Of a DNA stretch of 50,729 nt, positions 74 to 43,195 are shown in pieces; within the stretch, counting starts at the first letter, position 1, and every line of letters begins with the position of its first letter. The stretch comes from Verrucomicrobiota bacterium (GTDB lineage Bacteria; Verrucomicrobiota; Verrucomicrobiia; Limisphaerales; CANJSG01): assembly GCA_038209745.1 (NCBI GenBank), contig JBBQXJ010000030.1:1-50729 (forward strand), read 5' to 3'. Under the pieces are notes generated by a model, which was not told where the DNA came from, did no database searches, and saw only the letters and a program-made list of their open reading frames with translations. The position numbers and the translations under genes are program-made.

Positions 74-436
74 AAGCTGTTGAAGAGGGACGTGCTGGGG
101 CGGGTGCGGACGCCGAGGGCGAAACGGGAGGAGATCCTGGACGAGTTCGAAGGGAGCGGGGTGAGCGGAGGCGAGTTTGCGGAGCTGGTGGGGATCAAGT
201 ATCCGACGTTGGCCAGTTGGATCCAGAGACGGCGGCGCGAGCGCGGGACGTATGGCCGAAAAGCTCCGGTCAAGCCGGCCCAGAAGGTGCGTTTCCTGGA
301 GGCGGTGGTGGCGAAGGCCGATCCATCGTCGACCGCCCTGGAGGTGGAGGTGCCGGGCGGCGCGCGGCTGAGGATCACCGAGGCCGGCCAGGTGCCTTTG
401 GCCGTGCAGCTGATCCGGAGCCTCGCCTCATGTTGA
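62..436 (+). CDS. tnpA: IS66 accessory protein TnpA (HTH)
   Basis: 124 aa; REEILDEFEGSGVSGGEFAELVGIKYPTLASW HTH and LEVEVPGGARLRI C-terminal motif; first ORF in the IS. Confidence 0.9.
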   Translation: MASMKLLKRDVLGRVRTPRAKREEILDEFEGSGVSGGEFAELVGIKYPTLASWIQRRRRERGTYGRKAPVKPAQKVRFLEAVVAKADPSSTALEVEVPGGARLRITEAGQVPLAVQLIRSLASC

Positions 437-783
437 GCTTCGCGGGGAGCCTGAAGGTGTTCGTGGCGGTGGAGCCGTGCGACATGAGGAAGGGCTTCAA
501 CGGGCTCCACGCGCTGGTGACGGAACGGATGAAGGAGGATCCGAAGGCGGGTGCGCTCTTCGTCTTCACCAACCGCCGGCGCACCCGGCTCAAGATCCTG
601 TTCTGGGACCGGACGGGGCTGTGGGTCTGCACGAAGCGGTTGGAGGAAGGGACGTTCTCGTGGCCGCAGCCGACGGATGGCGGAGTGTCGAAGCTGCGGC
701 TGACGCCGGAGGCGCTCTCGTTGTTGACCGACGGGGTGGACCTGCGCGGACCGAAGCTGCGGCCGTGGTATGAGCGCGAATAA
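430..783 (+). CDS. tnpB: IS66 accessory protein TnpB (Orf2)
   Basis: DMRKGFNGL...LFVFTNRRRTRLKILFWDRTGLWVCTKRLEEGTFSWP signature; ATG at 430 overlaps the tnpA end. Confidence 0.95.
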   Translation: MLSFAGSLKVFVAVEPCDMRKGFNGLHALVTERMKEDPKAGALFVFTNRRRTRLKILFWDRTGLWVCTKRLEEGTFSWPQPTDGGVSKLRLTPEALSLLTDGVDLRGPKLRPWYERE

Positions 784-862
784 AACCGTGTAAAAACAGG
801 CGTTCCAGGCACTTCGTCGCTGACAACGGGAGGCTCTTTATCCTATAAGAAGAGCACCGAAG

Positions 863-2353
863 ATGACGCCGCGCGAAGCCGAACTCACAAGCCAGTTGGA
901 GATGGCCCTCCGGGAGAACGCGCTCCTTCGGCAGAAGATCGACCTCCTCGTCCGGCGTGTCTTCGGCTCGACGAGCGAGAAGCTTTCGCCCGGCCAACTG
1001 GAGCTGCTCCTCGCGTTGTCCGGGACCGCACCGGCGGTCGCCGCAGCCGCCGAGAAGCCCGCCCCACAAAACGTCTCCCGCCCCCAGAAGGAACGCGCCC
1101 CGCGCCTTCCGGAACACCTGCCCGTCGTCGAAGAAGTCCTCGACCCCGAGCTGGTGAAAGCCGCGCCCGAGCAATGGCGGCGCATCGGCGAGGAAGTCAG
1201 CGAACAGCTCGACTACGAGCCCGGCCGCTTCCTCCGTCGCCGGCTCGTCCGCCCGAAGTATGTCCGCAAGGACGACCGCGACGCGGCCCCGCTCATCGCG
1301 CCTTTGCCCGCTCGGTTGCAAGACAGGAGCCTGCCCACACCCGGCCTGCTGGCCCACGTGTTGGTCTCCAAATACTGCGACCACCTTCCGCTCTATCGGC
1401 AGGAGAAGATCTACGCCCGCCGCCACGGCGTGAACCTGCCCCGGCAGACGTTGGCCCGCTGGGTCGAACTCGCGTCCGACTGGCTCCAGCCCATCTACCG
1501 TGAGATCAAGTCCGGCGTGATGGCCGGCGGCTACGTGCAGATCGACGAAACGCCGGTGGATTATCTCGATCCGGGGCGGGGAAAGACGGGCCAAGGCTAC
1601 TTGTGGGTCTGCGCCAAACCCGAGGGCGACGCCGTCTTCCACTGGGAGACCAGCCGCGCCGCCGCGTGCCTGGCGAACCTTGTGCCCGTCGATTTCACCG
1701 GCATCGTGCAGTGCGACGGCTACGCGGCATATCCATCGTTCGCCCGGCAACACCCCAAGCCCATCCAGCTCGCCGGCTGCTGGGCGCACGTCCGAAGGAA
1801 GTTTTACGAGGCCCGCGCACAAAGCCCCAAAGTGACCGGCTGGTTCCTGCGCCAGATCCAACTGCTCTACCAGGTCGAAGCCCAGTTGCGGGAGCAGAAA
1901 GCCGGCCCCAAACTCCGCGCCGCCCTGCGGGCCAGCGCCAGCCGCTGGAACGTCGAACGCCTCCACCGCGCCCTGATCCGGCACAAAACGCGGCACCTGC
2001 CCAAGAGCCTCCTCGGCCAAGCCATCGACTACGCCCTCGGCCAATGGCCCACGCTGGAAGTGTATCTCGGGGACGGCCGGGTGGAGATCGACAACAACCG
2101 CGTCGAAAACGCCATCCGCCCAACGGCGGTCGGCAAAAAGAATTGGTTGTTCATGGGCGAAGCCGGAGCCGGCCAGAGAGGGGCCATCCTCTACACCGTC
2201 GTCGAAAGCTGCCGCCGCAGAGGGCTCGATCCCTACGCCTACCTCAAGGATGTCCTCACCCGTCTCCCGGACATGAAGAACCACCAGCTCCCCGAGATCC
2301 TCCCCGCCGCTTGGGCCAGATCCCGCCAGCCCCTCCACAAAATCGCGGCATAG
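863..2353 (+). CDS. tnpC: IS66 DDE transposase TnpC
   Basis: 496 aa; FGSTSEK, KYCDHLPLYRQ, DETP, CDGYAAY, CWAHVRRKF, IDNNRVENAIR, GKKNWLF, DPYAYLKDVL motifs. Confidence 0.97.
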   Translation: MTPREAELTSQLEMALRENALLRQKIDLLVRRVFGSTSEKLSPGQLELLLALSGTAPAVAAAAEKPAPQNVSRPQKERAPRLPEHLPVVEEVLDPELVKAAPEQWRRIGEEVSEQLDYEPGRFLRRRLVRPKYVRKDDRDAAPLIAPLPARLQDRSLPTPGLLAHVLVSKYCDHLPLYRQEKIYARRHGVNLPRQTLARWVELASDWLQPIYREIKSGVMAGGYVQIDETPVDYLDPGRGKTGQGYLWVCAKPEGDAVFHWETSRAAACLANLVPVDFTGIVQCDGYAAYPSFARQHPKPIQLAGCWAHVRRKFYEARAQSPKVTGWFLRQIQLLYQVEAQLREQKAGPKLRAALRASASRWNVERLHRALIRHKTRHLPKSLLGQAIDYALGQWPTLEVYLGDGRVEIDNNRVENAIRPTAVGKKNWLFMGEAGAGQRGAILYTVVESCRRRGLDPYAYLKDVLTRLPDMKNHQLPEILPAAWARSRQPLHKIAA

Positions 2354-7790: not shown

Positions 7791-10700
7791 TCATCGCTGC
7801 ACGGCTCCTTCCGGACTGGTGGCTGCGATGTAGACGGCGAGCCGGACGCGCATCGTCGTATCGTAGGAGGGCACCTGGGCGACGGCGCCGAGGAGGGCGT
7901 CGCGGGTGAGGGAGGACATCGAGCCGCCGCAGAAGAGGAGGTTCACCTCGTCGGCCAGCTTCCGGGGATCGTTCGCTAAACCGATCAGGGCCGAATAGTC
8001 GGGCTGGAACGCGTAGTCGCCGTAGTGGGTGATGCCGTCCTCGGACAGGTCCCAGAGCAGGTTCGGCAGCGAGATGCTGGAGTAGCTGTCGAGGATCTGG
8101 AACGCAGGGGCGACGAGGCTGTGGTCGGCCAGCAGTCCGGGCGGCTGGTAGGTGGGGCGGAAGAAGTTGAACACGCTGGGCGCGTAGGTCGGTTCCTGGA
8201 ACGCCTTGGCGCCGAACTCGCCCCAGGTCCACCAGAGCAGGTTGGTGTAGCGGTCGAGGCGGCCCACGCGATGGATCGCCATCGCGCGCTGCACCGGTTC
8301 CTTGAGCCGGCCGAACTGGGGCTGCCCGAGGAAGGCGACGGGTTGGCGCGCCTCGGGGTCCAGCAGGATGGCCTTCACGACGGCGGCGAGATTGCCGCGG
8401 CGATCGGTGCCGTCGTTGGCGAACACGGCGGAGACGCGGGCCACATAGTTGCTGGAGGGATTGCTGGTGACGAGGAACTGGACCAGTTGCCGCCCGATGA
8501 AGGGGCCGGTGTTCGGATGCTCGAAGAGACTGCGAATCGCGTCGTCCACATCGCGGATGGCGTTCTCCGCCGACGGCGCGCGGGCGGGGATGACGAAACC
8601 ATGGAGCAGCGTCTTCTCGGCGAAGTCGTGCTTCTCCGTCCATAGCTGCATCGGCACGGTGTAGTCGTCGTCGTTCCATCCGCCGCTGCCCCAGCTCTGG
8701 CCGCCGAACCACATTCCGGTGAAGACTCGGGCGAACTCGGTGATCTGCCCATTGCCATAGGTCGGGATCGGCTGGCCCTCGGCGTCGAGCTTGCGGGACC
8801 CGTCGGGGTTGAGCTCCCAGAGGCCGACGGTGAAGAGCTGCTCCACTTCGCGGGCGTAGTTCTCGTCGGGGAACTGGTTCACCTCGGGCCGGGCCTTCTG
8901 GTTGCCCACGCTGCTGAGGTACCGGCCCATCACGGGATGGAAGGTCACTTCGCGGAGGATGTCGGCGTAGTTGCCGAAGGCGTTCCGGACAAAGATGTCG
9001 TAGTAGTCCGCCATGCCCAGCGGGCGGTTCTCCAGGTTCGCGTCGCGGCGCGAAGCCACGAGGATCTGGCTCAGCGCGAAGGCCACCCGCTGGCGCAACT
9101 GGTCTTTCCCTGCGATGGCCGCCCGGGCGAAGGATGTCGTGAGGTTGTTCCCGTTGATGTAGTCGTTGTCTTTGTTGAAGGAGTAGGTCAGGTCCGTGCG
9201 GGCTCCCCGGAAATCGGCGTAGATCTGCTCGATGTAGCGGCGATGGAGGGTGGCCGGTTGTTTCGTGATCTGGTCGTCGATCCAACCCACGATGCCGAGC
9301 GCCTGCACGCGGTCCAGCTCGGCGGAGGTGGGTCCGAAGGTGGCCTGCTGCAGCAGCCTCGCGGCCTGGGCCCGGGTCGCTCCGTTCGTCGCCGGGTCGG
9401 CCCGGAGCGCTTCCACCAGCGTCGCGTAGTCGCCGGAGACGGTGCCGATGACGTCGCCCCTGGCGTCGACCATCGCGGTCGGGAGCCGGCTGCTGTCGGC
9501 GCGGAACGGGTCCGTGCCCAGCAGGACCTCGGTCCAGTCGCTCACTCCGTCGCCGTCGCTGTCCCTGTCCTCCGTCACCACGCGATAGAACTCGAACGGC
9601 GCTCCGGCCATGCGATTGGTCAGGCGGACATTGCTCCAGCCGTTGCCGGTCAACGGGACGAGCGGCACTTCGATCCAGTTCGTCAGGGTGGTGCTGGAAA
9701 AGAGGCGCTGTCGCTTCTGCGGTTGTTCGCTCCAAGCCAGCACAACGTCGTTGGTCTGGTGGCTCATCGCCAGGAACACGCCGGAATTCGGATCGAACGG
9801 GTCGGTGCCGAGGCGCGCTTCCTGGGCGTTGGACAAGCCGTCGCCGTCCGCATCGCCGTTCGGATCCAGTCCGGCCGCGCCATAGCGGGCGGCCCATGCG
9901 TCCGGCAACCCGTCGCCATCCAGATCCTCGCCGATGGGCCAGGGTTTGCCCGCCAGGTCGGGGCGCTTGGCGGCGGACAATGGATTGGAGCCGTTGGCCA
10001 GCTCCACGGAATCACTGACGCCATCCCCATCGGTGTCGGGGTTGTGGGGATCGGTGCCGGCGAGGAATTCGTCGCGGTTGCTCAGGCCGTCGTGGTCGGC
10101 GTCCTGGGTGGCGTCGGCGGCGGAATTCTTGTCGAAACCGTGGGCGTCCTCCCAGACGTCGGGCATCCCGTCCTTGTCGGTGTCCTTGGCCGCCGCGAAA
10201 GCCGGGAGCGATTCGAGCGGCGTGGGCGTGAGGAAGAGGCGCACGCCGGGATGGACCGTGACGTTGACCTGGTTGGTGCGGCCGCTGAAATCGGTCCAAA
10301 GCGCCGTGCCGTCGTCCAACGACGGGGCTGCGGTGCTGTTGGTGTAGACCTTGGAGAGGACGATGGTGCCCCGGGTCTGGTTGCGGATCTCGAAGGTCAG
10401 CGTCCAGAGATTCGTGGTGGCGGCCCGCTGGGCGAAGGTGCGGAACCGAAGCCGGTCCGAGAGGTCGGTCGCGCCGTAGCCGCTGAAACCGAGAGCGGTC
10501 TTCAGGTCGGGAACGAAGGTGCCGTATTCGGCCTGCCAGATCGAGGAGGTGGGCTGCTTCTGCTGGCTGAAGGCGCCGGTGCGTTCCGAGTGGAAGAGGT
10601 AGCTGACGGAGCCCTTGAAGTAGCGCAGCTCCATGCCGATGGAACGCCAGTTGTTGGTCCCCGCGTTCTGCACGCCGAAGGACAGCATCGTGTCCTCGTT

Positions 10701-12908
10701 GTTCGAGTTCGGCGCGAGCCCGCCGGTGCCGTGGTCCCAGACGAGCTGCACGTTGTCCATGGTCCAGTCCCAGCGCGCGGGCGAAGTCGAGTAGTAGGGA
10801 ACCCAGCCGTGGAAGGCCGCGTTGGTCGCGGGGTTGGACGACGGGTCGGTGCCGAGCCGGATCTCGTCCTTGTCGCTGACCCCGTCGCCGTCGGAGTCGG
10901 CCAGATTGGGATTGCTGGGCAGGATGCCGCGCACCTCGGCGTAGTCGGACAAACCGTCATGGTCGCTGTCGGCGGTCAGCGCGTTCGCGGCCGACTCTTC
11001 GCCGTCCATCAGTCCGTCGCCGTCGGTGTCGGGATTGCGCGGATCGCTGCCGCGCTGGAATTCCTGGAGATTGGTCAGCCCGTCGCCGTCCGAATCCGTG
11101 GCGGCCAGGGTCGGAGTGCCGGGTTCCAGTCCGTATTTCACCTCCCACCAGTCGGGGATGCCGCTGCCATCGGCGTCCAGGGTGGCGTCGATGATCTGCA
11201 CCGCGTGCAGGCCCACGCCCCAACTGCCGAGGTTGTTCACCGTGATCCTGGCATTGGGCGAGGTCAGACCGGCGTAGCGCACGTAGTTGCCATGGTGGAA
11301 ATCCGCGTCGCCGATCGGCATCTGGATGAAGCGGCGCTCCGGCGAGGAGCTTTGGGAGAGGAAGTAGCAACCGGTGGCCGGATCGTTGTTCAACAGCACC
11401 TGGCCGTAGCCGCCTTCGGACGAGCCGCCGACGTGGACGTAGAGGTCGTAGTGGGCGAACGGGATGTTCGTGAGACTGAGCACGACCGGCTGCGTCTCGG
11501 TGGAACGGAGCATTCCGTCCATCAGCCGCTGGTCGGGCGTGGCGCGGTTCTGGTTCGCATAGGGCGCGGCGGCGGTCCAACCAAAGGTCAATCCCGGCAC
11601 GGCCGCACCGTCGCAGCGGACGAGCTGGTTGGTCGCCGGCCGGACGATGTCGGTGGTTCCCCCGTTGGTGCGGGAAAAGGTCTGCATGGGGAGCGTCTCG
11701 TTCCACAGCATCTGCGGCACGACGCCGGCAATGTCGTTCGTGGCCAGCCCGCCGTCCCGGTCCGCCGTGGAGACGAAGTGCAGGCCGATGGCGCCGCGAA
11801 ATACGGTGGGCTTGGAAGAGGCGCTGTTGGGGTTGGTCCCCACGCGGCGCTCCCATGCGTCGGAAAAGCCGTCGCCATCCGTGTCGGCCAGCAGCGGTGA
11901 GGTCATCGGCGAACCGTGCACCTCGTCGTAGTCGCTGAGACCGTCGCCATCGGTGTCCATGAGCAAGGGATTGGTACCCAGCGCGCGCTCCTCCCCGTCG
12001 CTCAGGCCATCATGGTCGGTGTCGGCCATGTGTGGATCGGTGGATTGAAAGCCGCCGTTGTATTCCTGAAGATTGGTCAATCCGTCGTGGTCCGGATCCA
12101 TCGCGGCGTCGGTGGGATCGGAATCGCTGAGCTGATGGTCCAGTTCCCACCAGCGGGGCAACCCGTCGTGGTCCGCGTCGGCCAGGGCGTTGGTGTCGGC
12201 CTCCAGCTGGACGAAGTCGAACTGCACCCAATGGCTGATGCCGGCCACCTTCGGTCCGGTACGGACGAATTCGATGGTCTGGGGACCCGCGCGGGCGGCG
12301 ACGTTCGTGGCCGCGAAGTCCAACGTCACCCGCGTGTCGCGCTCCACCGGGCCGCTCCAGAGCAGGTTCGTGGCGGTGGCGGAGCGGAAGCGCACCTCCA
12401 CATCGTGCCGGCCGAAGCCCTCGCCGCTCTTGTTTATCGGCGAGCCATACCAGAAGCCGCCGTTGACCAGTTCGAAGCTCAAGCGCAAGCGGGACTCCGC
12501 TCCGGCCTCGGCGGGGGTGAGGATGAAGTGGACGCGGTTCGTGGGATCGGACGTGGTCAGGGCGCGCTCGAAGCCCTTGTCGTCCTCGGCGAAAGCCATC
12601 ACGAGATTGGTCGTCAGGCTGTTGAACCCGATCGGGAAGGTGCCGGCCATGTAGTGGTCGTCGTCCTTGGCGGGGTTGTTCGTGCTGTAGAGCGGATCCT
12701 CGGGCCGACGCGTGACCCGGCCGGGAGGTTTGTTCGGCGAACCGCTTTCGGGGGAAAACTCGTCCGAGGGATTGTAACCGGAGCGGAGCGGATCTTCGTC
12801 CACGCCGATCAGCCACACCGTCTGCGGTGCGGCGGAAAGGGCCGGAGCGGCTGCCAATCCCAGGATCAAGGCCAGGGTCCGGATAAGACGTTGGACAGTC
12901 GCACGCAT
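7791..12908 (-). CDS. Giant secreted DUF1800-domain protein with an N-terminal beta-sandwich domain and many DxDxDG (TSP3-like, Ca-binding) repeats
   Basis: Signal peptide MRATVQRLIRTLALILGLAAAPALSA; repeated DTDGDGLSD/DADHDGLP motifs; C-terminal DUF1800 motifs ARLLQQATFGPT, DQLRQRVAFALSQILV, PDENYAREVEQLFTVGL, RLKEP, APSVFNFF. Confidence 0.9.
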   Translation of the reverse strand: MRATVQRLIRTLALILGLAAAPALSAAPQTVWLIGVDEDPLRSGYNPSDEFSPESGSPNKPPGRVTRRPEDPLYSTNNPAKDDDHYMAGTFPIGFNSLTTNLVMAFAEDDKGFERALTTSDPTNRVHFILTPAEAGAESRLRLSFELVNGGFWYGSPINKSGEGFGRHDVEVRFRSATATNLLWSGPVERDTRVTLDFAATNVAARAGPQTIEFVRTGPKVAGISHWVQFDFVQLEADTNALADADHDGLPRWWELDHQLSDSDPTDAAMDPDHDGLTNLQEYNGGFQSTDPHMADTDHDGLSDGEERALGTNPLLMDTDGDGLSDYDEVHGSPMTSPLLADTDGDGFSDAWERRVGTNPNSASSKPTVFRGAIGLHFVSTADRDGGLATNDIAGVVPQMLWNETLPMQTFSRTNGGTTDIVRPATNQLVRCDGAAVPGLTFGWTAAAPYANQNRATPDQRLMDGMLRSTETQPVVLSLTNIPFAHYDLYVHVGGSSEGGYGQVLLNNDPATGCYFLSQSSSPERRFIQMPIGDADFHHGNYVRYAGLTSPNARITVNNLGSWGVGLHAVQIIDATLDADGSGIPDWWEVKYGLEPGTPTLAATDSDGDGLTNLQEFQRGSDPRNPDTDGDGLMDGEESAANALTADSDHDGLSDYAEVRGILPSNPNLADSDGDGVSDKDEIRLGTDPSSNPATNAAFHGWVPYYSTSPARWDWTMDNVQLVWDHGTGGLAPNSNNEDTMLSFGVQNAGTNNWRSIGMELRYFKGSVSYLFHSERTGAFSQQKQPTSSIWQAEYGTFVPDLKTALGFSGYGATDLSDRLRFRTFAQRAATTNLWTLTFEIRNQTRGTIVLSKVYTNSTAAPSLDDGTALWTDFSGRTNQVNVTVHPGVRLFLTPTPLESLPAFAAAKDTDKDGMPDVWEDAHGFDKNSAADATQDADHDGLSNRDEFLAGTDPHNPDTDGDGVSDSVELANGSNPLSAAKRPDLAGKPWPIGEDLDGDGLPDAWAARYGAAGLDPNGDADGDGLSNAQEARLGTDPFDPNSGVFLAMSHQTNDVVLAWSEQPQKRQRLFSSTTLTNWIEVPLVPLTGNGWSNVRLTNRMAGAPFEFYRVVTEDRDSDGDGVSDWTEVLLGTDPFRADSSRLPTAMVDARGDVIGTVSGDYATLVEALRADPATNGATRAQAARLLQQATFGPTSAELDRVQALGIVGWIDDQITKQPATLHRRYIEQIYADFRGARTDLTYSFNKDNDYINGNNLTTSFARAAIAGKDQLRQRVAFALSQILVASRRDANLENRPLGMADYYDIFVRNAFGNYADILREVTFHPVMGRYLSSVGNQKARPEVNQFPDENYAREVEQLFTVGLWELNPDGSRKLDAEGQPIPTYGNGQITEFARVFTGMWFGGQSWGSGGWNDDDYTVPMQLWTEKHDFAEKTLLHGFVIPARAPSAENAIRDVDDAIRSLFEHPNTGPFIGRQLVQFLVTSNPSSNYVARVSAVFANDGTDRRGNLAAVVKAILLDPEARQPVAFLGQPQFGRLKEPVQRAMAIHRVGRLDRYTNLLWWTWGEFGAKAFQEPTYAPSVFNFFRPTYQPPGLLADHSLVAPAFQILDSYSSISLPNLLWDLSEDGITHYGDYAFQPDYSALIGLANDPRKLADEVNLLFCGGSMSSLTRDALLGAVAQVPSYDTTMRVRLAVYIAATSPEGAVQR

Positions 12909-13057
12909 GCGTCGGGGAACTGAGCAGGACCCTAGCCATCCCGGCCGGATTGTCCACCGGCGGTAGAACCCGGCGGTGGCAGAAGGGAATGGCCCGTTCT
13001 CTCGGGCGAGAAAAGCCGGATGCTCCCGTCTTTCGCGCCCCTGCAAACGGGGCCGGT

Positions 13058-37135: not shown

Positions 37136-38839
37136 ATGCCCGTTCGCCGCCTCATCCAGTCCCGCCTCGCCTGGGCGCTCCTGTCCAATGCGCTGCGGGT
37201 GGGTGGCTACATGCTGGTCCTGCCCATCGCGCTGCGCACCATTCCCGAAGCGGAGATGGAGATCTGGTGGCTCTTCGGCGCGGTGCAGGCGTTGGTCGTC
37301 CAGGCGGACTTCGGGCTGGGGCCCTCCATCAGCCGTGGCTTGTCCTACTTGTTGGCCGGCGCCACTTCCTTGCAGCCCGGCGCGGCCAAGGCCGGAGCCG
37401 AGGCCGATCCGGTCAAGGTCGCGGGTTTCATCCACGCGACGCATCGGGTCTATCGCTGGGTCATCGGCGCGGCCGTCGGGATCCTGATCCTGGCCAGCTT
37501 CTTCATCGTGCCGAAGATCGGAGCCGGGACCTTTTCCGGGGGCGACTTCAAGGACGTGGCGGCGTTCGTGGCCGGAATCCGGGCGGAGAACGACCCCGTC
37601 TCCGCCTGGCTCAAGCGCGCGCTTCCCCCCGAGGTGTTGGGCGGGATCTATGGGGACCGGAAGACCAATCCGGAATGGGATCGTCAGGTGCGCGCTTTCG
37701 TGAAGTCGCTCAATGCCCTGGTGGTCCGCGAGCCGGTCTTTGAACCGACCCGGTTCGCGGGTGCGACGCTCAGGCCGGAGACCCGGGCGTGGGTCGAGTC
37801 CCGGCCGACCGGGGCGCCTTTGGTCCGGGCCAACCGCCTCCTGCTGGAAGATGCGTTTCCGACGGCGATCACGAAGAATCCGGCCGCCCTGCATGGCCGG
37901 GCCTGGTGGATCATGATCGCCAGCTGGGTCGTTTTTGGGCTCGGCGTTCTGCTGACGCTGTCCTCCACCCGGTTCATCAATTTCTTGACCGGAGCGGACC
38001 ATGTGCGCTTGGCCCAGCAGCTGGCTCTGATCGGCATGGCGGTGAATCTGGCGCTCACGGCGGCCGGGCTCCTCGCCGGGTTCGGGTTCGCCGCGATGGC
38101 GGTGGGCTTGATGGGCAACGGCATCGTGCAGTCGATCGGGGGCCGCTGGGGCGTGCGCCGGCATCTGGGGCGGTTCCTGGGCGGCGGCGACGTCGAGACC
38201 GGCAAACGGATCTTTCTGGAAGTCTGGCCCAGTGCCTGGCGGGCCGGAGTGGTCTCGCTGGGGGCCTACCTCATCTACAATTCGAACGTCTTCTGGGCCT
38301 CGGCTTATCTCGGTCAGCCCGACGCCAGCCAATACCCCTTCACCCTGAAACTGATGCAGGTGCTCATGATCGTTTGCGGGCTTCCTGTTTCGACCCAGGT
38401 GCCCAAGTTGGCGCGCTGGATGGCCGCCGGTGAGCCCCGGCAGGCATGGAGTTACTTCCTCCGCCGACATTTTCTGGGGCTGGGCGCCCTAATGATCGGC
38501 GTCCTCGGACTCTGGCTGCTGGGAGACCGTTTTCTGGCTCGAATGGGTTCCCATAGCACCCTCTTGCCCGGGCCGCTCCTGCTCTTCATGGGATTGATCT
38601 ATGTGCTGGAGTTCAACCATGGCTATTGCGCCACCTTGGTCATGACCCGGAACGAAGTGCCGTTTGTCTGGGCGGCGACCGTTTCCGGAGTGGTCATCTG
38701 TGTGGGCGGAGGGGTGTTGGTTCAGACTTTTGGTCTCTGGGGCTTGTTGGGAACGGTGTTTGTCGTCCAAGCTGCTTGGAACAACTGGTGGGTGCCGTGG
38801 TTGGCATGGCGCGCTGTCAGGGGTGAGTCCCGTGCATGA
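37136..38839 (+). CDS. Polysaccharide flippase (Wzx-like) with an inserted soluble domain
   Basis: Multi-TM protein with ADFGLGPSISR near the N-terminus and NEVPF near the C-terminus; hydrophilic insert at about 37525-37875. Confidence 0.82.
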   Translation: MPVRRLIQSRLAWALLSNALRVGGYMLVLPIALRTIPEAEMEIWWLFGAVQALVVQADFGLGPSISRGLSYLLAGATSLQPGAAKAGAEADPVKVAGFIHATHRVYRWVIGAAVGILILASFFIVPKIGAGTFSGGDFKDVAAFVAGIRAENDPVSAWLKRALPPEVLGGIYGDRKTNPEWDRQVRAFVKSLNALVVREPVFEPTRFAGATLRPETRAWVESRPTGAPLVRANRLLLEDAFPTAITKNPAALHGRAWWIMIASWVVFGLGVLLTLSSTRFINFLTGADHVRLAQQLALIGMAVNLALTAAGLLAGFGFAAMAVGLMGNGIVQSIGGRWGVRRHLGRFLGGGDVETGKRIFLEVWPSAWRAGVVSLGAYLIYNSNVFWASAYLGQPDASQYPFTLKLMQVLMIVCGLPVSTQVPKLARWMAAGEPRQAWSYFLRRHFLGLGALMIGVLGLWLLGDRFLARMGSHSTLLPGPLLLFMGLIYVLEFNHGYCATLVMTRNEVPFVWAATVSGVVICVGGGVLVQTFGLWGLLGTVFVVQAAWNNWWVPWLAWRAVRGESRA

Positions 38840-40633: not shown

Positions 40634-40654
40634 CGGCAGGTGTCCCACCTGCCG
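40630..40654. repeat. GTAG-hairpin REP-like element
   Basis: GTAG followed by CGGCAGGTG-TCC-CACCTGCCG, a perfect 9-bp stem overlapping the methyltransferase stop codon. Confidence 0.6.
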
Positions 40655-40754
40655 TAAAGACAGGGCCTCCAGTCCGCCGGACCGGAACGCCACGTCAAGC
40701 CAGCCCACGGATTCCCGGTCTCGAACGGGGACGGGGTGGATAAATCAGGAGAAG

Positions 40755-40816
40755 CCCCTCACTCCGCCCCTCTCCCCATCGAATGGGGAGAGGATGGCAG
40801 AAGGTCGGGTGAGGGG
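40755..40816. repeat. CCCTCTCCCC/GGGGAGAGG-type palindromic intergenic repeat, copy 2
   Basis: CCCCTCACTCCGCCCCTCTCCCCATCGAATGGGGAGAGGATGGCAGAAGGTCGGGTGAGGGG, nested inverted repeats; homologous to 6157-6218. Confidence 0.8.
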
Positions 40817-41035
40817 ACGCCCCCGATTCAACGAGGCTATTCCCGCTTTTGGCCTTTCACGGCCCCGTTCCCGCGATTGCGGACACTATTTGTCCTGCAA
40901 CCGGCAGATTTTGCCCTAAGAAGGTGCATTTTGCCGATCAGTGGGCGTGTTTAGCAGATCGTCCGGGCCGTTGTTCTTGTTTCGAGACACCTTCGGCAGG
41001 TCGGAGGCGGGTCGGGGACTCCCTTCGGAGAGAGG

Positions 41036-41266
41036 CCGACGGGAAGCGACCGCCGCCCCACGATTAGCCAAGAGCTGCGGAAGAGTTGCGGCGTGGGGAG
41101 CAGGGTCGTTCCCGTCGTTGGGAAGAGCGTCGGAGTGCTTCGGAGGATCGCGGTCGGGGTGAAGAAGACCGTCGGCCCGGCCAAGACGGTTTGCGGAGAC
41201 CCAGCGACAATGGAAGAAACGGGGCGGACGAGCGCGGCCAGGCGGGAGAAGATCGTCGGCGACCTG
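41036..41266. repeat. Degenerate tandem array of 11 x 21-nt units
   Basis: GAAGA/GAGGA/GACGG-type cores recur at 41038, 41059, 41080, 41101, 41122, 41143, 41164, 41185, 41206, 41227 and 41248 (exact 21-nt spacing); unit position 4 is A in all 11 units. Confidence 0.75.
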
Positions 41267-41580
41267 CCGTTTTGATGGTCGGAACGGTGCGCGGAGTCTG
41301 GTCCGCGAGCGGGGCGCTTCGTGTTTGGACCCCCAAAAGTCGTCGCAGAGGGGTGTCTCACCGCGCAGCCAGACAGCGCGTCCGAGCAGGCGGCGGAGCG
41401 AGGCGCCGCTCTCCAGTGGGGCGGGGTTCCCCATGCGGTGGGCGTGCTGTTGGTCGGGTTGGCATCGTTGCTGCTACGCAGAAGTCGTCCCCGAAGAGGT
41501 TGTTCCTGGTTCTATCCTGGGGATAGGACGGGAGTCTTCATCAACAAAAACTGTCGGTATAAAAAAAGAGAAAAGGAAAA

Positions 41581-42195
41581 ATGCCTAATTATCGCGTATC
41601 TCTGGCCTTCACGAAAGTGTCCGATGCCAGCCTCGGTGAATTCGTCCTCATGGTCGTCGACTCGATGACCAGCAACCCGGCCTATCCGGCCCCGACGGTC
41701 CCGATCCCCGATCTGGCGGCGGCGCGCACGGCCTTTCTGAGCGCCTTGTCCGCCTCCGAAGTCGGCGGCATGCTGGCCACGGCCACGAAAAACGAGTCCC
41801 GGGAAGCGCTGCTGAAGCTCATGCGCAAGCAGGCCGCCTATGTGCAGGGGGAGATGGGCGACGACTTCGCCACCCTTCTCTCCTCCGGATTCGAGAGCGT
41901 GAGCCGTAACCGAACCCGGATCCAACTGCCCCCGCCTCGGGTGGAGCGCATCCGCAACGAACGCAGCGCCCAACTGGTGGTGGACCTGGCTCCGATGGCC
42001 AATGCCCGGGCCTACGAGGTGCAGAAAATGAACGGCACTGGAGGTTGGATGCCCGTGGGCATCTTCACCCAGTCCCGGCGTATCGTGCTGGAGGGATTGA
42101 ACCCGGGCTCGATCTATACCGTGCAGGCCCGGGCCGTCGGGGGCACCACCGGCTACAGCGACTGGAGCGACCCGGTGTCCCACATGTCGTTGTAG
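41581..42195 (+). CDS. Helical N-terminal domain + C-terminal fibronectin type III-like protein, no signal peptide
   Basis: 204 aa; amphipathic helices ending LLSSGF, then ARAYEVQ..W...LEGLNPGSIYTVQARAVGG..GYSDWSDPV (FN3 pattern); purine/A-rich leader just before the ATG. Confidence 0.85.
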   Translation: MPNYRVSLAFTKVSDASLGEFVLMVVDSMTSNPAYPAPTVPIPDLAAARTAFLSALSASEVGGMLATATKNESREALLKLMRKQAAYVQGEMGDDFATLLSSGFESVSRNRTRIQLPPPRVERIRNERSAQLVVDLAPMANARAYEVQKMNGTGGWMPVGIFTQSRRIVLEGLNPGSIYTVQARAVGGTTGYSDWSDPVSHMSL

Positions 42196-42207
42196 GTTGG
42201 AGTCGGG

Positions 42208-42313
42208 ATCTTCCCCCGCTCCGGCGCATGGCTCCGGGGCGGGAGAAGATGGGGCGGACCGGCAAGGTCCGCCCTGCTTGGAATAGGGGTGGGGCGGCGC
42301 TGCCGCGCCGCCC
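42208..42313. other. Three consecutive GC-rich stem-loops downstream of the FN3-like gene
   Basis: 42208-42224/42234-42250 (17 bp, 15 Watson-Crick), GGGCGGACC/GGTCCGCCC (42252-42274) and GGGCGGCGC/GCGCCGCCC (42292-42313); no U-tract. Confidence 0.7.
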
Positions 42314-42427
42314 TGATCATCGCGGAGCGGAGCGATGCGTTCTGGAAGCGGAAGAATGTCGCTTCCACCCGACCGCGTTGCGCGGGTCGAGCGGAGAGAC
42401 GGGACGCGTCTGGTCCGGCAACGCAAG

Positions 42428-42630: not shown

Positions 42631-42649
42631 TTGCGGATCAACAGGGATG

Positions 42650-43195
42650 CGGGCGGAACTCGTCTTGCTGGGGCCTACCCTGTCTACAATTCGAACGTCG
42701 GCTGGGCCTCGGCCTATCTGGGCCAGCCCGACGCCAGCCAATATCTAGCCACCCTGAAACTGATGCAGGTGCTGATGATGGTCTGCGGGTTGCTCGGGGC
42801 CACCCAAGTGCCAAATTTGGCGCGATGGATGGCCGCCGGCGAGCCCCGGTAGGCATGGCGTTATTCCTCCGCCGGAATTGTCTCGGGCTCTGGCTGTAGT
42901 GAGACCGGTTGCTGGCTTGGATGGGATCCCATAATACCCTCTTGCCCGGGCCACTCCTGCTCTTCATGGGACTGATCTACGTGCTGGAGTTAAACCACGT
43001 CTATTTCGCGACCTTGGTCATGACCCGGAACGAAGTGCCGTTTGTCTGGGTGGCGACCATTTCCGGAATGGCCATTTGCGGGGATGGGGGCTTGTTGGTT
43101 CAGACTTTTGGTCATTGGTGCTTGTTGGGCAATGCGTTTGTAGTCCAAGCTGCTCGGAACAACTGGTGGGTCCCGTGGTTGGCGATACGATCCAA
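42650..43195 (+). pseudogene. Decayed duplicate of the 3' third of the wzx-like gene (about 38238-38815)
   Basis: Long near-identical blocks (e.g. ACCTTGGTCATGACCCGGAACGAAGTGCCGTTTGTCTGGG), CAG changed to TAG at 42850-42852, frameshifts and a short deletion. Confidence 0.92.

What the first reader, a model, noticed from the sequence alone, without database searches (positions are those of the whole stretch)
40755..42313. Candidate undescribed module: 21-nt array + long leader + helical-bundle/FN3-like gene + triple hairpin, inserted in a glycan locus
Seen: about 950 bp with no recognisable gene (40634-41580) contains the array, a roughly 310-nt spacer with a small hairpin (41512-41526) and an A-rich ribosome-loading stretch. 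An intact signal-less FN3-like gene unrelated to glycan synthesis follows, then three stem-loops. The unit is bounded by REP-like palindromes and pseudogene debris, yet the gene itself is undamaged. Inference: the array and gene form one functional, possibly mobile unit, such as a protein acting on or with a variable repeat RNA/peptide (defence, decoy or regulatory role). No mechanism can be read from the sequence.
Basis: inference. Interest (0 to 1): 0.8.

Follow-up and report, generated by a model that had tools for sequence, protein, structure and literature searches.

The report
Phased 21-bp array before FN3 gene
A small bacterial gene of unknown function is nearly always preceded by a row of DNA repeats spaced exactly two turns of the double helix apart, which looks like an unusually long, undescribed kind of gene switch; this window holds a worn copy of it.

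Summary
The pairing of array and gene is real, but it is a DNA-level regulatory design, not an RNA, peptide or defence module. The window's own array (about 41002-41273) is weak and degenerate. It still exceeds the 99th percentile of matched control zones and lies where the family's arrays lie.

Both paralogs of the 204-aa gene in this genome have clean 21-nt arrays of about 12 units upstream. In 111 homologous loci with 1 kb of upstream DNA, 84 show 21-nt phasing there, against 1 of 121 downstream controls. No period other than 21 or 42 was seen. A deeply diverged subfamily keeps the arrays (13 of 17).

Array sequences turn over. Units are often palindromic, show no strand bias and no codon pattern, and are gained or lost in 21-nt steps.

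A sigma-54 promoter motif (41460-41475) lies between array and gene. It is followed by a roughly 95-nt leader with a stem-loop and an A-rich stretch. The protein is a four-helix bundle plus an FN3 domain, near neutral in charge and without conserved neighbours.

Most likely the array is a row of regulator-binding sites on one face of the DNA; the binding protein is unknown. Earlier agents of this scan reported the same class on other genomes. Four literature searches found no description.

The parts
40735..40845 (.). REP-like palindromic dispersed repeat. It marks the left boundary and is not specific to the module.
   Evidence: 17 other copies in the genome at 72-96% identity.
41002..41273 (.). 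Degenerate 21-bp phased tandem array of about 10-13 units, best defined at 41064-41273. Proposed upstream regulator-binding region.
   Evidence: Lag-21, 42, 63 and 84 identity of 0.43-0.44, in the top 0.2% of genome windows. Above the 99th percentile of matched controls. Units laid out in register. It sits at -579 to -308 from the ATG, inside the range of family arrays.
41460..41475 (+). Sigma-54-type promoter motif TGGCAT-N5-CTGCT (-24 GG at 41461-2, -12 GC at 41473-4).
   Evidence: Only 40 such motifs occur in 9.16 Mb of both strands, and three of them lie 113-121 nt before the three paralogs. Family-wide the motif is enriched 56-fold at -250 to -40.
41493..41539 (+). Stem-loop near the predicted 5' end of the mRNA leader.
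   Evidence: Leader fold (z = -1.7). Both paralogs have analogous leader hairpins. Related loci show G-U-compatible changes in the stem.
41542..41580 (+). A-rich, unstructured leader segment before the ATG.
   Evidence: Sequence; unpaired in the fold. The same design appears in most sigma-54-type leaders of the family.
41581..42195 (+). Gene for a 204-aa protein: N-terminal four-helix bundle (1-100) plus C-terminal FN3 domain (about 115-204).
42208..42250 (+). Long GC-rich hairpin just after the stop codon. Possible terminator, but it has no U tract. Unique in the genome.
42244..42324 (.). Second dispersed repeat holding stem-loops 2 and 3. It marks the right boundary and is not module-specific.
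   Evidence: Copies in contigs C78 (three) and C82. The hairpin motif GGCGGACC..GGTCCGCC occurs 6 times in the genome, once downstream of the C80 paralog.

Best explanation
The window holds a worn member of a conserved cis-regulatory design found in Verrucomicrobiota.

Anatomy: a tandem array of 21-bp units (two turns of B-DNA) lies 150-770 bp before the start codon of a small gene. The gene encodes a four-helix bundle plus an FN3 domain. Array and gene are separated by the gene's own promoter, here and in about a quarter of loci a sigma-54 promoter. A roughly 95-nt leader follows, with a 5' stem-loop and an A-rich translation start region.

Proposed mechanism (inferred): the array works as double-stranded DNA. 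Each unit is one, often palindromic, binding site for a dimeric regulator, so 8-20 dimers sit side by side on one face of the helix. At sigma-54 promoters the natural candidate is an enhancer-binding ATPase. The row then activates, or in a silencing version shuts, the promoter in a steep, switch-like manner.

Arrays evolve by gain and loss of whole units and by homogenisation, so their sequence drifts while the 21-bp period is held.

Shown here: the co-occurrence, the strict period, the position, the promoter motif, and the non-coding, strand-symmetric character.

Inferred: protein binding, the identity of the binder and the direction of regulation.

The gene product's function is unknown. By inspection the N-terminus shows no signal segment (no predictor was run), which would fit a protein that stays in the cell. 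Its conserved surfaces suggest it works through protein-protein contacts.
For: Association:
- Both paralogs in this genome carry clean 21-nt arrays on the same side and at a similar distance.
- Lag-21 identity of at least 0.45 occurs in 84 of 111 upstream zones against 1 of 121 downstream zones.
- At a threshold of 0.5, the genome set gave 46 of 74 upstream, 0 of 83 in the gene and 0 of 78 downstream.
- An independent metagenome set gave 39 of 57, 0 of 80 and 0 of 54.
- The 14 other lags tested (15-20, 22-27, 30, 33) gave 0 of 131; lag 21 gave 86 of 131 and lag 42 gave 99 of 131.
- A subfamily that matches the profile only at E of about 1e-20 keeps the arrays: 13 of 17 loci, and one further locus has a 22-nt period.

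DNA-level character:
- The sigma-54 motif occurs at 13.5 per 10 kb at -250 to -40 on the sense strand, against 0.24 elsewhere and 0.08 antisense. It is present in 42 of 148 loci, at a median of -107. The median gap from array end to motif is 109 bp.
- The genome has one rpoN and 12 full enhancer-binding ATPase genes.
- Units are palindromic more often than shuffles: 13 of 45 at P <= 0.05.
- 39 of 91 arrays share a TCCG-N3-CGGA-type core, by single-linkage clustering at 16 or more of 21 matches; the core itself was read by eye from the consensus units.
- There is no strand bias: GGA exceeds TCC in 37 arrays and the reverse in 37; G-T versus A-C mismatches favour one side in 13 arrays and the other in 9.
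- Variation among units is not 3-periodic: 5 of 83 at P <= 0.05, with 4.2 expected.
- Register shifts of one base occur inside arrays (L056).
- Related loci differ by an exact 21-nt unit.
- There are no conserved neighbour genes in 83 loci.
Against: - No binding protein is identified, and no experiment or RNA data exist: no RNA run was listed.
- Array sequences differ between the three paralogs of one genome. A single regulator cannot serve them all.
- Many loci seem to use sigma-70-like promoters, so an enhancer-binding ATPase cannot be the general reader.
- Only 22 of 83 arrays have clear palindromes, meaning at least 5 of 8 positions paired.
- One of two dyad centres shows more complementarity between neighbouring arms than permuted arms do (z = 4.9). 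Hairpin or cruciform formation would also explain this.
- An enhancer-binding ATPase gene lies within the fetched flanks in only 4 of 183 loci.
- The window's own array is so degenerate that it may no longer work.
- Arrays without an FN3 gene exist in this genome, on contigs C91, C54/C127 and C14/C44.
Confidence: 0.55

Rival explanations
1. The array is a geometry-based DNA element with no sequence-specific reader. Possibilities include intrinsic curvature, cruciform extrusion by the tandem palindromes under supercoiling, or a nucleation track for a nucleoid protein. It would tune the promoter through DNA shape or topology.
For: The period is conserved while the sequence is not. Arrays are richer in A and T than their surroundings. 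Units are partly palindromic. One dyad centre shows an excess of cognate-arm complementarity (z = 4.9). One 22-nt array occurs in the distant subfamily, a period that is not a multiple of three and so argues against coding; it neither favours nor disfavours this rival over site-specific binding.
Against: In a wedge model (parameters recalled from memory), arrays are only slightly more curved than flanks (end-to-end/contour 0.930 against 0.965). They are less curved than tandem arrays of shuffled units (0.871). Only 3 of 61 exceed 95% of shuffles. A shared TCCG-N3-CGGA-type core in 39 of 91 arrays from many genomes points to sequence recognition. The mean palindrome is only about 5 of 10 positions, which is weak for cruciforms.
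Confidence: 0.15
2. The array is transcribed and acts as RNA: a chain of small hairpins or a sponge for an RNA-binding protein, working with or on the FN3 protein.
For: Units can fold into 6-8-bp hairpins. G-T mismatches slightly outnumber A-C on the gene strand, 120 against 84. In the three paralogs of this genome a hairpin plus T-run follows the array. Partial copies made of the array plus 100-130 nt exist without the gene. A CsrA homologue is present.
Against: - The promoter motif and the conserved leader lie downstream of the array.
- Terminator-like sites after arrays are as common antisense as sense, 11 of 67 each.
- GGA is not enriched (0.49 per unit against 0.40 background) and shows no strand bias.
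- There is no Rfam match in 9 loci at E <= 1.
- The protein has no RNA-binding fold and is near neutral in charge.
Confidence: 0.1
3. The FN3 protein itself binds its own array, either for autoregulation or as a centromere-like or assembly site. This would explain why each paralog has its own array sequence.
For: The gene is the only conserved partner of the array. Paralogs in one genome have different arrays. Known centromere-binding proteins sit next to their repeat arrays (recalled: parC/ParR).
Against: Mean net charge is +1, and the N-terminal domain is -1.6. The N-domain is a generic four-helix bundle (best Z 8.9, in the range of chance for helical bundles). The C-domain is an ordinary FN3. 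There is no partner NTPase gene. The same array core occurs with proteins only 42-56% identical.
Confidence: 0.08
4. The 21-nt period reflects a heptad-repeat peptide or protein encoded across the array.
For: 21 is a multiple of 3. 76 of 83 arrays keep at least one open frame. In the window, one plus-strand frame (41093-41275) has coding-like GC by codon position, 0.64/0.54/0.80.
Against: - There is no 3-periodic variation among units: 5 of 83, with 4.2 expected.
- No plus-strand frame is open in 18 of 83 arrays, and no minus-strand frame in 28 of 83.
- One-base register shifts occur inside arrays.
- One array has a 22-nt period.
- Units are palindromic.
- The three longest open reading frames that cross the window's array (136, 172 and 146 aa) have no Pfam hit; the 60-aa frame at 41093-41275 was not scanned.
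- With only seven positions per codon class in a repeat, the GC pattern in the window is within chance.
Confidence: 0.03

Closest known systems
Upstream activator sequences (enhancers) of sigma-54 promoters bound by enhancer-binding ATPases. NtrC at glnAp2 and NorR with three sites are recalled from general knowledge. Reviews PMC7057263 and PMC7175178 were seen only in a search listing.
   Same: The array lies upstream of a -24/-12 promoter motif, at a median of 109 bp from it. Units are inverted repeats the size of a dimer site. Neighbouring sites sit on the same helical face. The genome has rpoN and 12 such ATPases.
   Different: Known enhancers have 2-5 sites (recalled); these arrays have 8-20 contiguous units. 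The array persists in loci that appear to have sigma-70-type promoters. It is tied to one gene family rather than to one regulator. Its sequence differs between paralogs.
Centromere-like repeat arrays of plasmid partition systems: parC of R1 (11-bp iterons), pSK41 parC (20-bp repeats), sopC of F (43-bp repeats). Recalled from general knowledge; not read here.
   Same: Contiguous, helically phased repeats of 11 to 43 bp (parC of R1, parC of pSK41, sopC of F; recalled). They are bound cooperatively by small dimers and lie just upstream of the operon they regulate.
   Different: No partition NTPase or ribbon-helix-helix gene is nearby. The loci are chromosomal, with 1-11 copies per genome. The adjacent protein is an FN3 protein that is near neutral in charge.
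Plasmid iterons (17-22-bp repeats at about 22-bp spacing next to a rep gene). Recalled.
   Same: Unit length and tandem arrangement at two helical turns.
   Different: No initiator gene is adjacent and no conserved gene flanks the module; DnaA boxes and AT-rich unwinding elements were not looked for. A promoter and a conserved non-Rep gene follow instead.
Repeat-controlled contingency promoters, for example heptanucleotide repeats upstream of hmw1A/hmw2A in Haemophilus.
   Same: Tandem repeats upstream of a multi-copy gene family. Whole units are gained or lost between related loci.
   Different: Units are long (21 bp) and imperfect. One population look found no length change over the C26 array (one contig in one run). 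Changes in 21-bp steps would keep rather than shift helical phase.

Membership tests
Sigma-54-dependent promoter with enhancer | -24 GG / -12 GC promoter elements with canonical spacing upstream of the gene | tested here: met
   TGGCATCGTTGCTGCT at 41460-41475, 121 nt before the ATG. The same motif lies at -115 and -113 in the two paralogs. It is enriched 56-fold at this position in the family. This is a pattern match only.
Sigma-54-dependent promoter with enhancer | The genome encodes sigma-54 and enhancer-binding ATPases | tested here: met
   One Sigma54_DBD match. 16 Sigma54_activat matches over the cut-off, 12 of them covering the whole AAA+ core.
Sigma-54-dependent promoter with enhancer | The upstream repeats are bound by an enhancer-binding ATPase and are needed for activation | not testable with these tools
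   Needs binding and reporter assays. An ATPase gene lies in the fetched flanks of only 4 of 183 loci.
Fibronectin type III domain (PF00041) | Match to the family profile above the curated cut-off | tested here: not met
   21.4 bits against a cut-off of 25 for the window's protein. Many homologues do carry a precomputed PF00041 hit.
Fibronectin type III domain (PF00041) | Seven-stranded FN3 beta-sandwich fold | tested here: met
   AlphaFold model with pLDDT 87.5. Foldseek gives 427 PDB matches at E <= 0.001, and the top-ranked ones listed are all FN3-containing structures.
Plasmid iterons / Rep origin | Adjacent initiator (Rep) gene with winged-helix domains | tested here: not met
   No conserved neighbour gene. 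The only conserved gene is the helical-bundle plus FN3 protein.
Type I/II partition centromere (parC/sopC) | Adjacent partition NTPase and centromere-binding adaptor genes | tested here: not met
   No conserved neighbours in 83 loci. The loci are chromosomal and multi-copy.
CRISPR array | Repeats of 23-50 nt separated by unique spacers of similar length | tested here: not met
   Units are contiguous 21-mers without spacers.
CsrB/RsmZ-type sponge RNA | Many GGA motifs on the transcribed strand, in loops of hairpins | tested here: not met
   GGA at 0.49 per unit against 0.40 background; GGA exceeds TCC in 37 arrays and the reverse in 37. No Rfam match.
Coding heptad repeat | One frame open throughout, with variation concentrated at third codon positions | tested here: not met
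   5 of 83 arrays show 3-periodic variation at P <= 0.05, with 4.2 expected. No plus frame is open in 18 of 83 and no minus frame in 28 of 83.
Simple-sequence contingency locus | Copy number varies within populations | tested here: inconclusive
   One contig of one run spans the C26 array with no length change. Related loci differ by one 21-nt unit.

The most novel reading that the evidence does not exclude
The arrays are tracks on which a regulator polymerises along one face of the DNA, read more by 21-bp geometry than by sequence. This would be a bacterial counterpart of a super-enhancer or silencer. It would give each copy of a multi-copy FN3 protein family an all-or-none, individually addressable switch. 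A cell could then express one paralog at a time.
Probability: 0.15. Interest if true: 0.85.

Novelty: new variant of a known kind. Interest (0 to 1): 0.62.

Why it matters
Known bacterial promoters use a handful of regulator sites (recalled). Here, three quarters of more than a hundred loci of one gene family carry 8-20 contiguous sites. These are held at exactly two helical turns while their sequence turns over, and the arrangement persists across deep divergence of the protein.

If the arrays are protein-binding tracks, they would be a natural system for studying several things: cooperative, switch-like control; the concerted evolution of binding sites; and how sigma-54 activators or other regulators assemble on long arrays.

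They also explain a practical nuisance. In these data many contigs stop within a few hundred bases upstream of the gene, which may be because assemblies break at the arrays; this was not tested.

The gene family is large (4,360 clusters at 50% identity) and has no known function. Its dedicated and elaborate control region marks it as worth studying.

Tried and rejected
- RNA evidence: no RNA holder was listed among 24 runs, so transcription could not be examined.
It was repeated with 9 loci and gave nothing relevant.
- Protein libraries: NCBIfam gave no family. PHROGs gave only weak FN3 matches to tail proteins. The ESM Atlas gave unnamed clusters only. A search for longer fused forms gave one 386-aa protein covering 32% of the query, taken as a miscall.
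- N-domain fold searches gave only generic helical bundles and nothing in the viral library.
- Close orthologues, wanted to see how the window's degenerate array evolves: the metagenome scan returned nothing above 56% identity. Same-genus genomes lack the orthologue.
- Synteny with a same-genus genome ends at the GT2 gene, so an insertion event could not be defined.
- Curvature hypothesis: not supported by the wedge model. Its parameters were recalled from memory, so the result is approximate.
- Terminator after the array: seen in the three paralogs but not systematic.
- Neighbouring enhancer-binding ATPase gene: 4 of 183 loci, about the chance rate.
- Literature: four full-text searches found no description of such arrays. 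One paper (PMC9426551, passages read) only notes intergenic tandem-repeat variation in Planctomycetota.
- Not run: a complex prediction, because no protein-protein claim is made; and a phylogenetic profile of the 12 ATPases against the FN3 family.
Full report
**What is in the window**

The gene at 41581-42195 (+) encodes an intact 204-aa protein. Upstream, 40735-40845 is a palindromic dispersed repeat with 17 other copies in the genome.

From about 41002 to 41273 the sequence has a weak 21-nt periodicity. Tandem Repeats Finder does not report it. However, identity at lags 21, 42, 63 and 84 is 0.43-0.44, against about 0.25 at lags that are not multiples of three. Only 0.2% of 216,703 genome windows of the same size reach the lag-21 value. 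Lags 18 and 24 are also raised (0.37 and 0.41), so the signal is modest. Laid out in register, about ten units share a loose nCGnCGG-N9-GAAGA pattern.

The 307-nt spacer that follows is not featureless. It holds a sigma-54-type promoter motif, TGGCATCGTTGCTGCT, at 41460-41475. The leader's 3' part is A-rich and unpaired.

After the stop codon, three GC-rich stem-loops fold far better than shuffles (z = -3.9, 0 of 200). The first is unique. The second and third belong to another dispersed repeat. Beyond them, 42649-43183 is an 80%-identical fragment of the flippase gene at 38239-38805. The surroundings are a glycan synthesis locus.

**The association is real**

The genome has two paralogs, at 54% and 51% identity. 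Both carry clean arrays of about twelve 21-nt units on the gene's side, ending 285-340 nt before the ATG. Their unit sequences are unrelated to each other and to the window's.

I collected 80 loci from species genomes and 80 from metagenomes. These were the best 80 of 161 and of 267 confirmed relatives.

- At a threshold of 0.5 for lag-21 identity in a 147-nt window, the genome set plus the three own loci gave: 46 of 74 upstream zones, 0 of 83 gene bodies, 0 of 78 downstream zones, 4 of 56 far-upstream zones and 3 of 67 far-downstream zones.
- The metagenome set gave 39 of 57, 0 of 80, 0 of 54, 0 of 33 and 0 of 38.
- With matched 940-nt zones and a threshold of 0.45, the figures are 84 of 111 upstream against 1 of 121 downstream. 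The window scores 0.46, above the 99th percentile of the controls (0.429).
- Of 16 lags tested, only 21 (86 of 131) and 42 (99 of 131) ever reached the threshold.
- A subfamily that matches the family profile only at about 1e-20 keeps the design: 13 of 17 loci with at least 600 nt upstream. A further locus has a 22-nt array.

No other gene is conserved next to the family.

**What the arrays are like**

Unit sequences differ between loci. Even so, 39 of 91 arrays fall into one loose cluster (single linkage at 16 or more of 21 matches) with a TCCG-N3-CGGA-type core flanked by AAACCTTT-like sequence. The array of this genome's C26 paralog is in that cluster.

Units are palindromic more often than shuffled units. 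13 of 45 reach P <= 0.05, and the mean is 6.2 against 5.3 of 10 positions. A row of palindromes automatically has a second dyad between units, so half-sites alternate in orientation about every 10.5 bp.

The arrays look the same on both strands:
- GGA exceeds TCC in 37 arrays and the reverse in 37.
- G-T versus A-C mismatches favour the gene strand in 13 arrays and the other strand in 9.

They do not behave as coding sequence:
- Variation among units is not 3-periodic (5 of 83 at P <= 0.05, 4.2 expected).
- No plus-strand frame is open in 18 of 83, and no minus-strand frame in 28 of 83.
- Single-base register shifts occur.
- One array has period 22.

Among six related loci, one differs from the rest by exactly one 21-nt unit. 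One contig from one sediment run spans the C26 array with substitutions but no length change.

A wedge-model calculation used parameters recalled from memory and is therefore approximate. It gives arrays slightly more curvature than flanks (0.930 against 0.965) but less than tandem arrays of shuffled units (0.871). There is thus no sign of selection for bending.

**Position relative to the promoter**

The motif TGGYAY-N5-NTGCN occurs at 13.5 per 10 kb at -250 to -40 on the sense strand. Elsewhere it occurs at 0.24 per 10 kb, and at 0.08 antisense. It is present in 42 of 148 loci, at a median of -107. Where both features are present (25 loci), the array ends a median of 109 bp upstream of it.

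In this genome the motif occurs only 40 times in 9.16 Mb of both strands. Three of those 40 stand before the three paralogs. The genome has one rpoN and 12 full enhancer-binding ATPase genes.

Other loci show sigma-70-like promoters, for example TTGACA-17-TAACAT, so the promoter type is not universal while the array is.

Terminator-like sites after arrays are as frequent antisense as sense (11 of 67 each). No Rfam family matches. No RNA run was listed, so transcription of the array is excluded only by inference.

**The protein**

AlphaFold gives a four-helix bundle (1-100) and an FN3 sandwich (pLDDT 87.5; N-domain alone 90.0). The FN3 domain matches hundreds of solved FN3 domains. The bundle matches only generic helical bundles (best Z 8.9, within the chance range for such folds).

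The family is near neutral in charge (mean net +1), stands alone at about 204 aa and is large: 4,360 clusters at E <= 0.001 for the N-domain profile.

It is patchy in distribution. It was found in 27 of 151 genomes of the same order, with 1-11 copies, and in 3 of 201 genomes sampled across the phylum. Nothing suggests that it binds nucleic acid, and its function remains unknown.

**Reading**

The best-supported explanation is a DNA-level control region. It is a row of dimer-sized sites at two-turn spacing, bound by an unknown regulator. In the window's clade, that regulator is plausibly an enhancer-binding ATPase acting on the sigma-54 promoter. The window's copy is degenerate and may be decaying.

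Several rivals remain possible and are scored separately: geometry-only DNA, repeat RNA, self-binding by the FN3 protein, and a coding heptad repeat.

Earlier agents of this scan reported the same class on other genomes. I reached the same reading before seeing those notes and tested it here independently.

**Limits**

All promoter and binding statements rest on sequence patterns. The loci analysed are the best-scoring 80 of each collection, not all relatives. Kin are not independent, so the counts overstate statistical weight.

Noticed in passing
G000 contigs C37:139-488 and C45:30018-30370 (own genome, outside the window): Partial copies of the paralogs' upstream regions (the array plus the first 100-130 nt of the spacer) exist without any FN3 gene. 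C37 is 95% identical over 350 nt to the C80 locus. C45 is 73.5% identical over 385 nt to the C26 locus, in reverse orientation, and is cut off by a dispersed repeat.
   Followed up: partly
G000 contigs C91:16789-17068, C54:32157-32561, C127:174-550, C14:69946-70094, C44:139-189: Further long 21-nt arrays (up to 19 units) have no FN3 gene nearby. Four of them sit at contig ends and share one unit (GCTCCGGTTAAAGCGAACAAC). The one in C44 abuts a truncated tyrosine-recombinase-like reading frame. So arrays are not exclusive to the FN3 family.
   Followed up: partly
Loci L042 (-654..-581), L047 (-680..-589), L073 (-600..-530); just after the stop codon in L017, L037, L088/L089; own genome, 23 rows of period 7: Perfect heptanucleotide tandem repeats of 4-13 copies, often 100% identical, lie near these modules and elsewhere in the genome; many are variants of CCGGATG. 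One heptamer array downstream of the C26 paralog (L002:884-928) has a +1-unit variant in one sediment run.
   Followed up: partly
Loci L042, L051, L056, L058, L062, L071, L073, L075 (about 111 nt before the matched start): In one clade (records titled Prosthecobacter or Verrucomicrobiaceae) the protein carries an in-frame N-terminal extension of about 37 aa with three W-containing motifs (MAKIPLTWDG..PLRWD..GLTWDG). In L073 the array ends only about 36 nt before this start codon.
   Followed up: no
G000: 13 sites, e.g. C91:16679 and 17348, C45:29888, C24:54321: A dispersed element of about 40 nt with the core TGACTATTGACCTGTCCCTTTGTATT occurs 13 times. Two direct copies flank the C91 array. 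It may be the end of a mobile element.
   Followed up: no
window 42649-43183 versus 38239-38805: An 80%-identical duplicate of the 3' part of the flippase gene, now broken into fragments, precedes a second GT2 gene. In a same-genus genome (G349) synteny with the window holds from about 34134 to the first GT2 gene and then ends. The methyltransferase and the FN3 module therefore lie in the variable part of the glycan locus.
   Followed up: partly
window 217-2353: An IS66-family element (TnpB-like Orf2 and a DDE transposase) lies at the window's left end.
   Followed up: no
window 7791-13046 (-): A 1,751-aa protein with bacterial TSP3 repeats and a C-terminal DUF1800 domain.
   Followed up: no
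Loci L133, L138, L164 (+2.3 to +3.0 kb) and L054 (-2.4 to -2.9 kb): In one subclade a sigma-54 enhancer-binding ATPase gene lies convergent, downstream of the FN3 gene, at the same relative position in three related loci. It is a candidate cognate regulator for that subclade.
   Followed up: no
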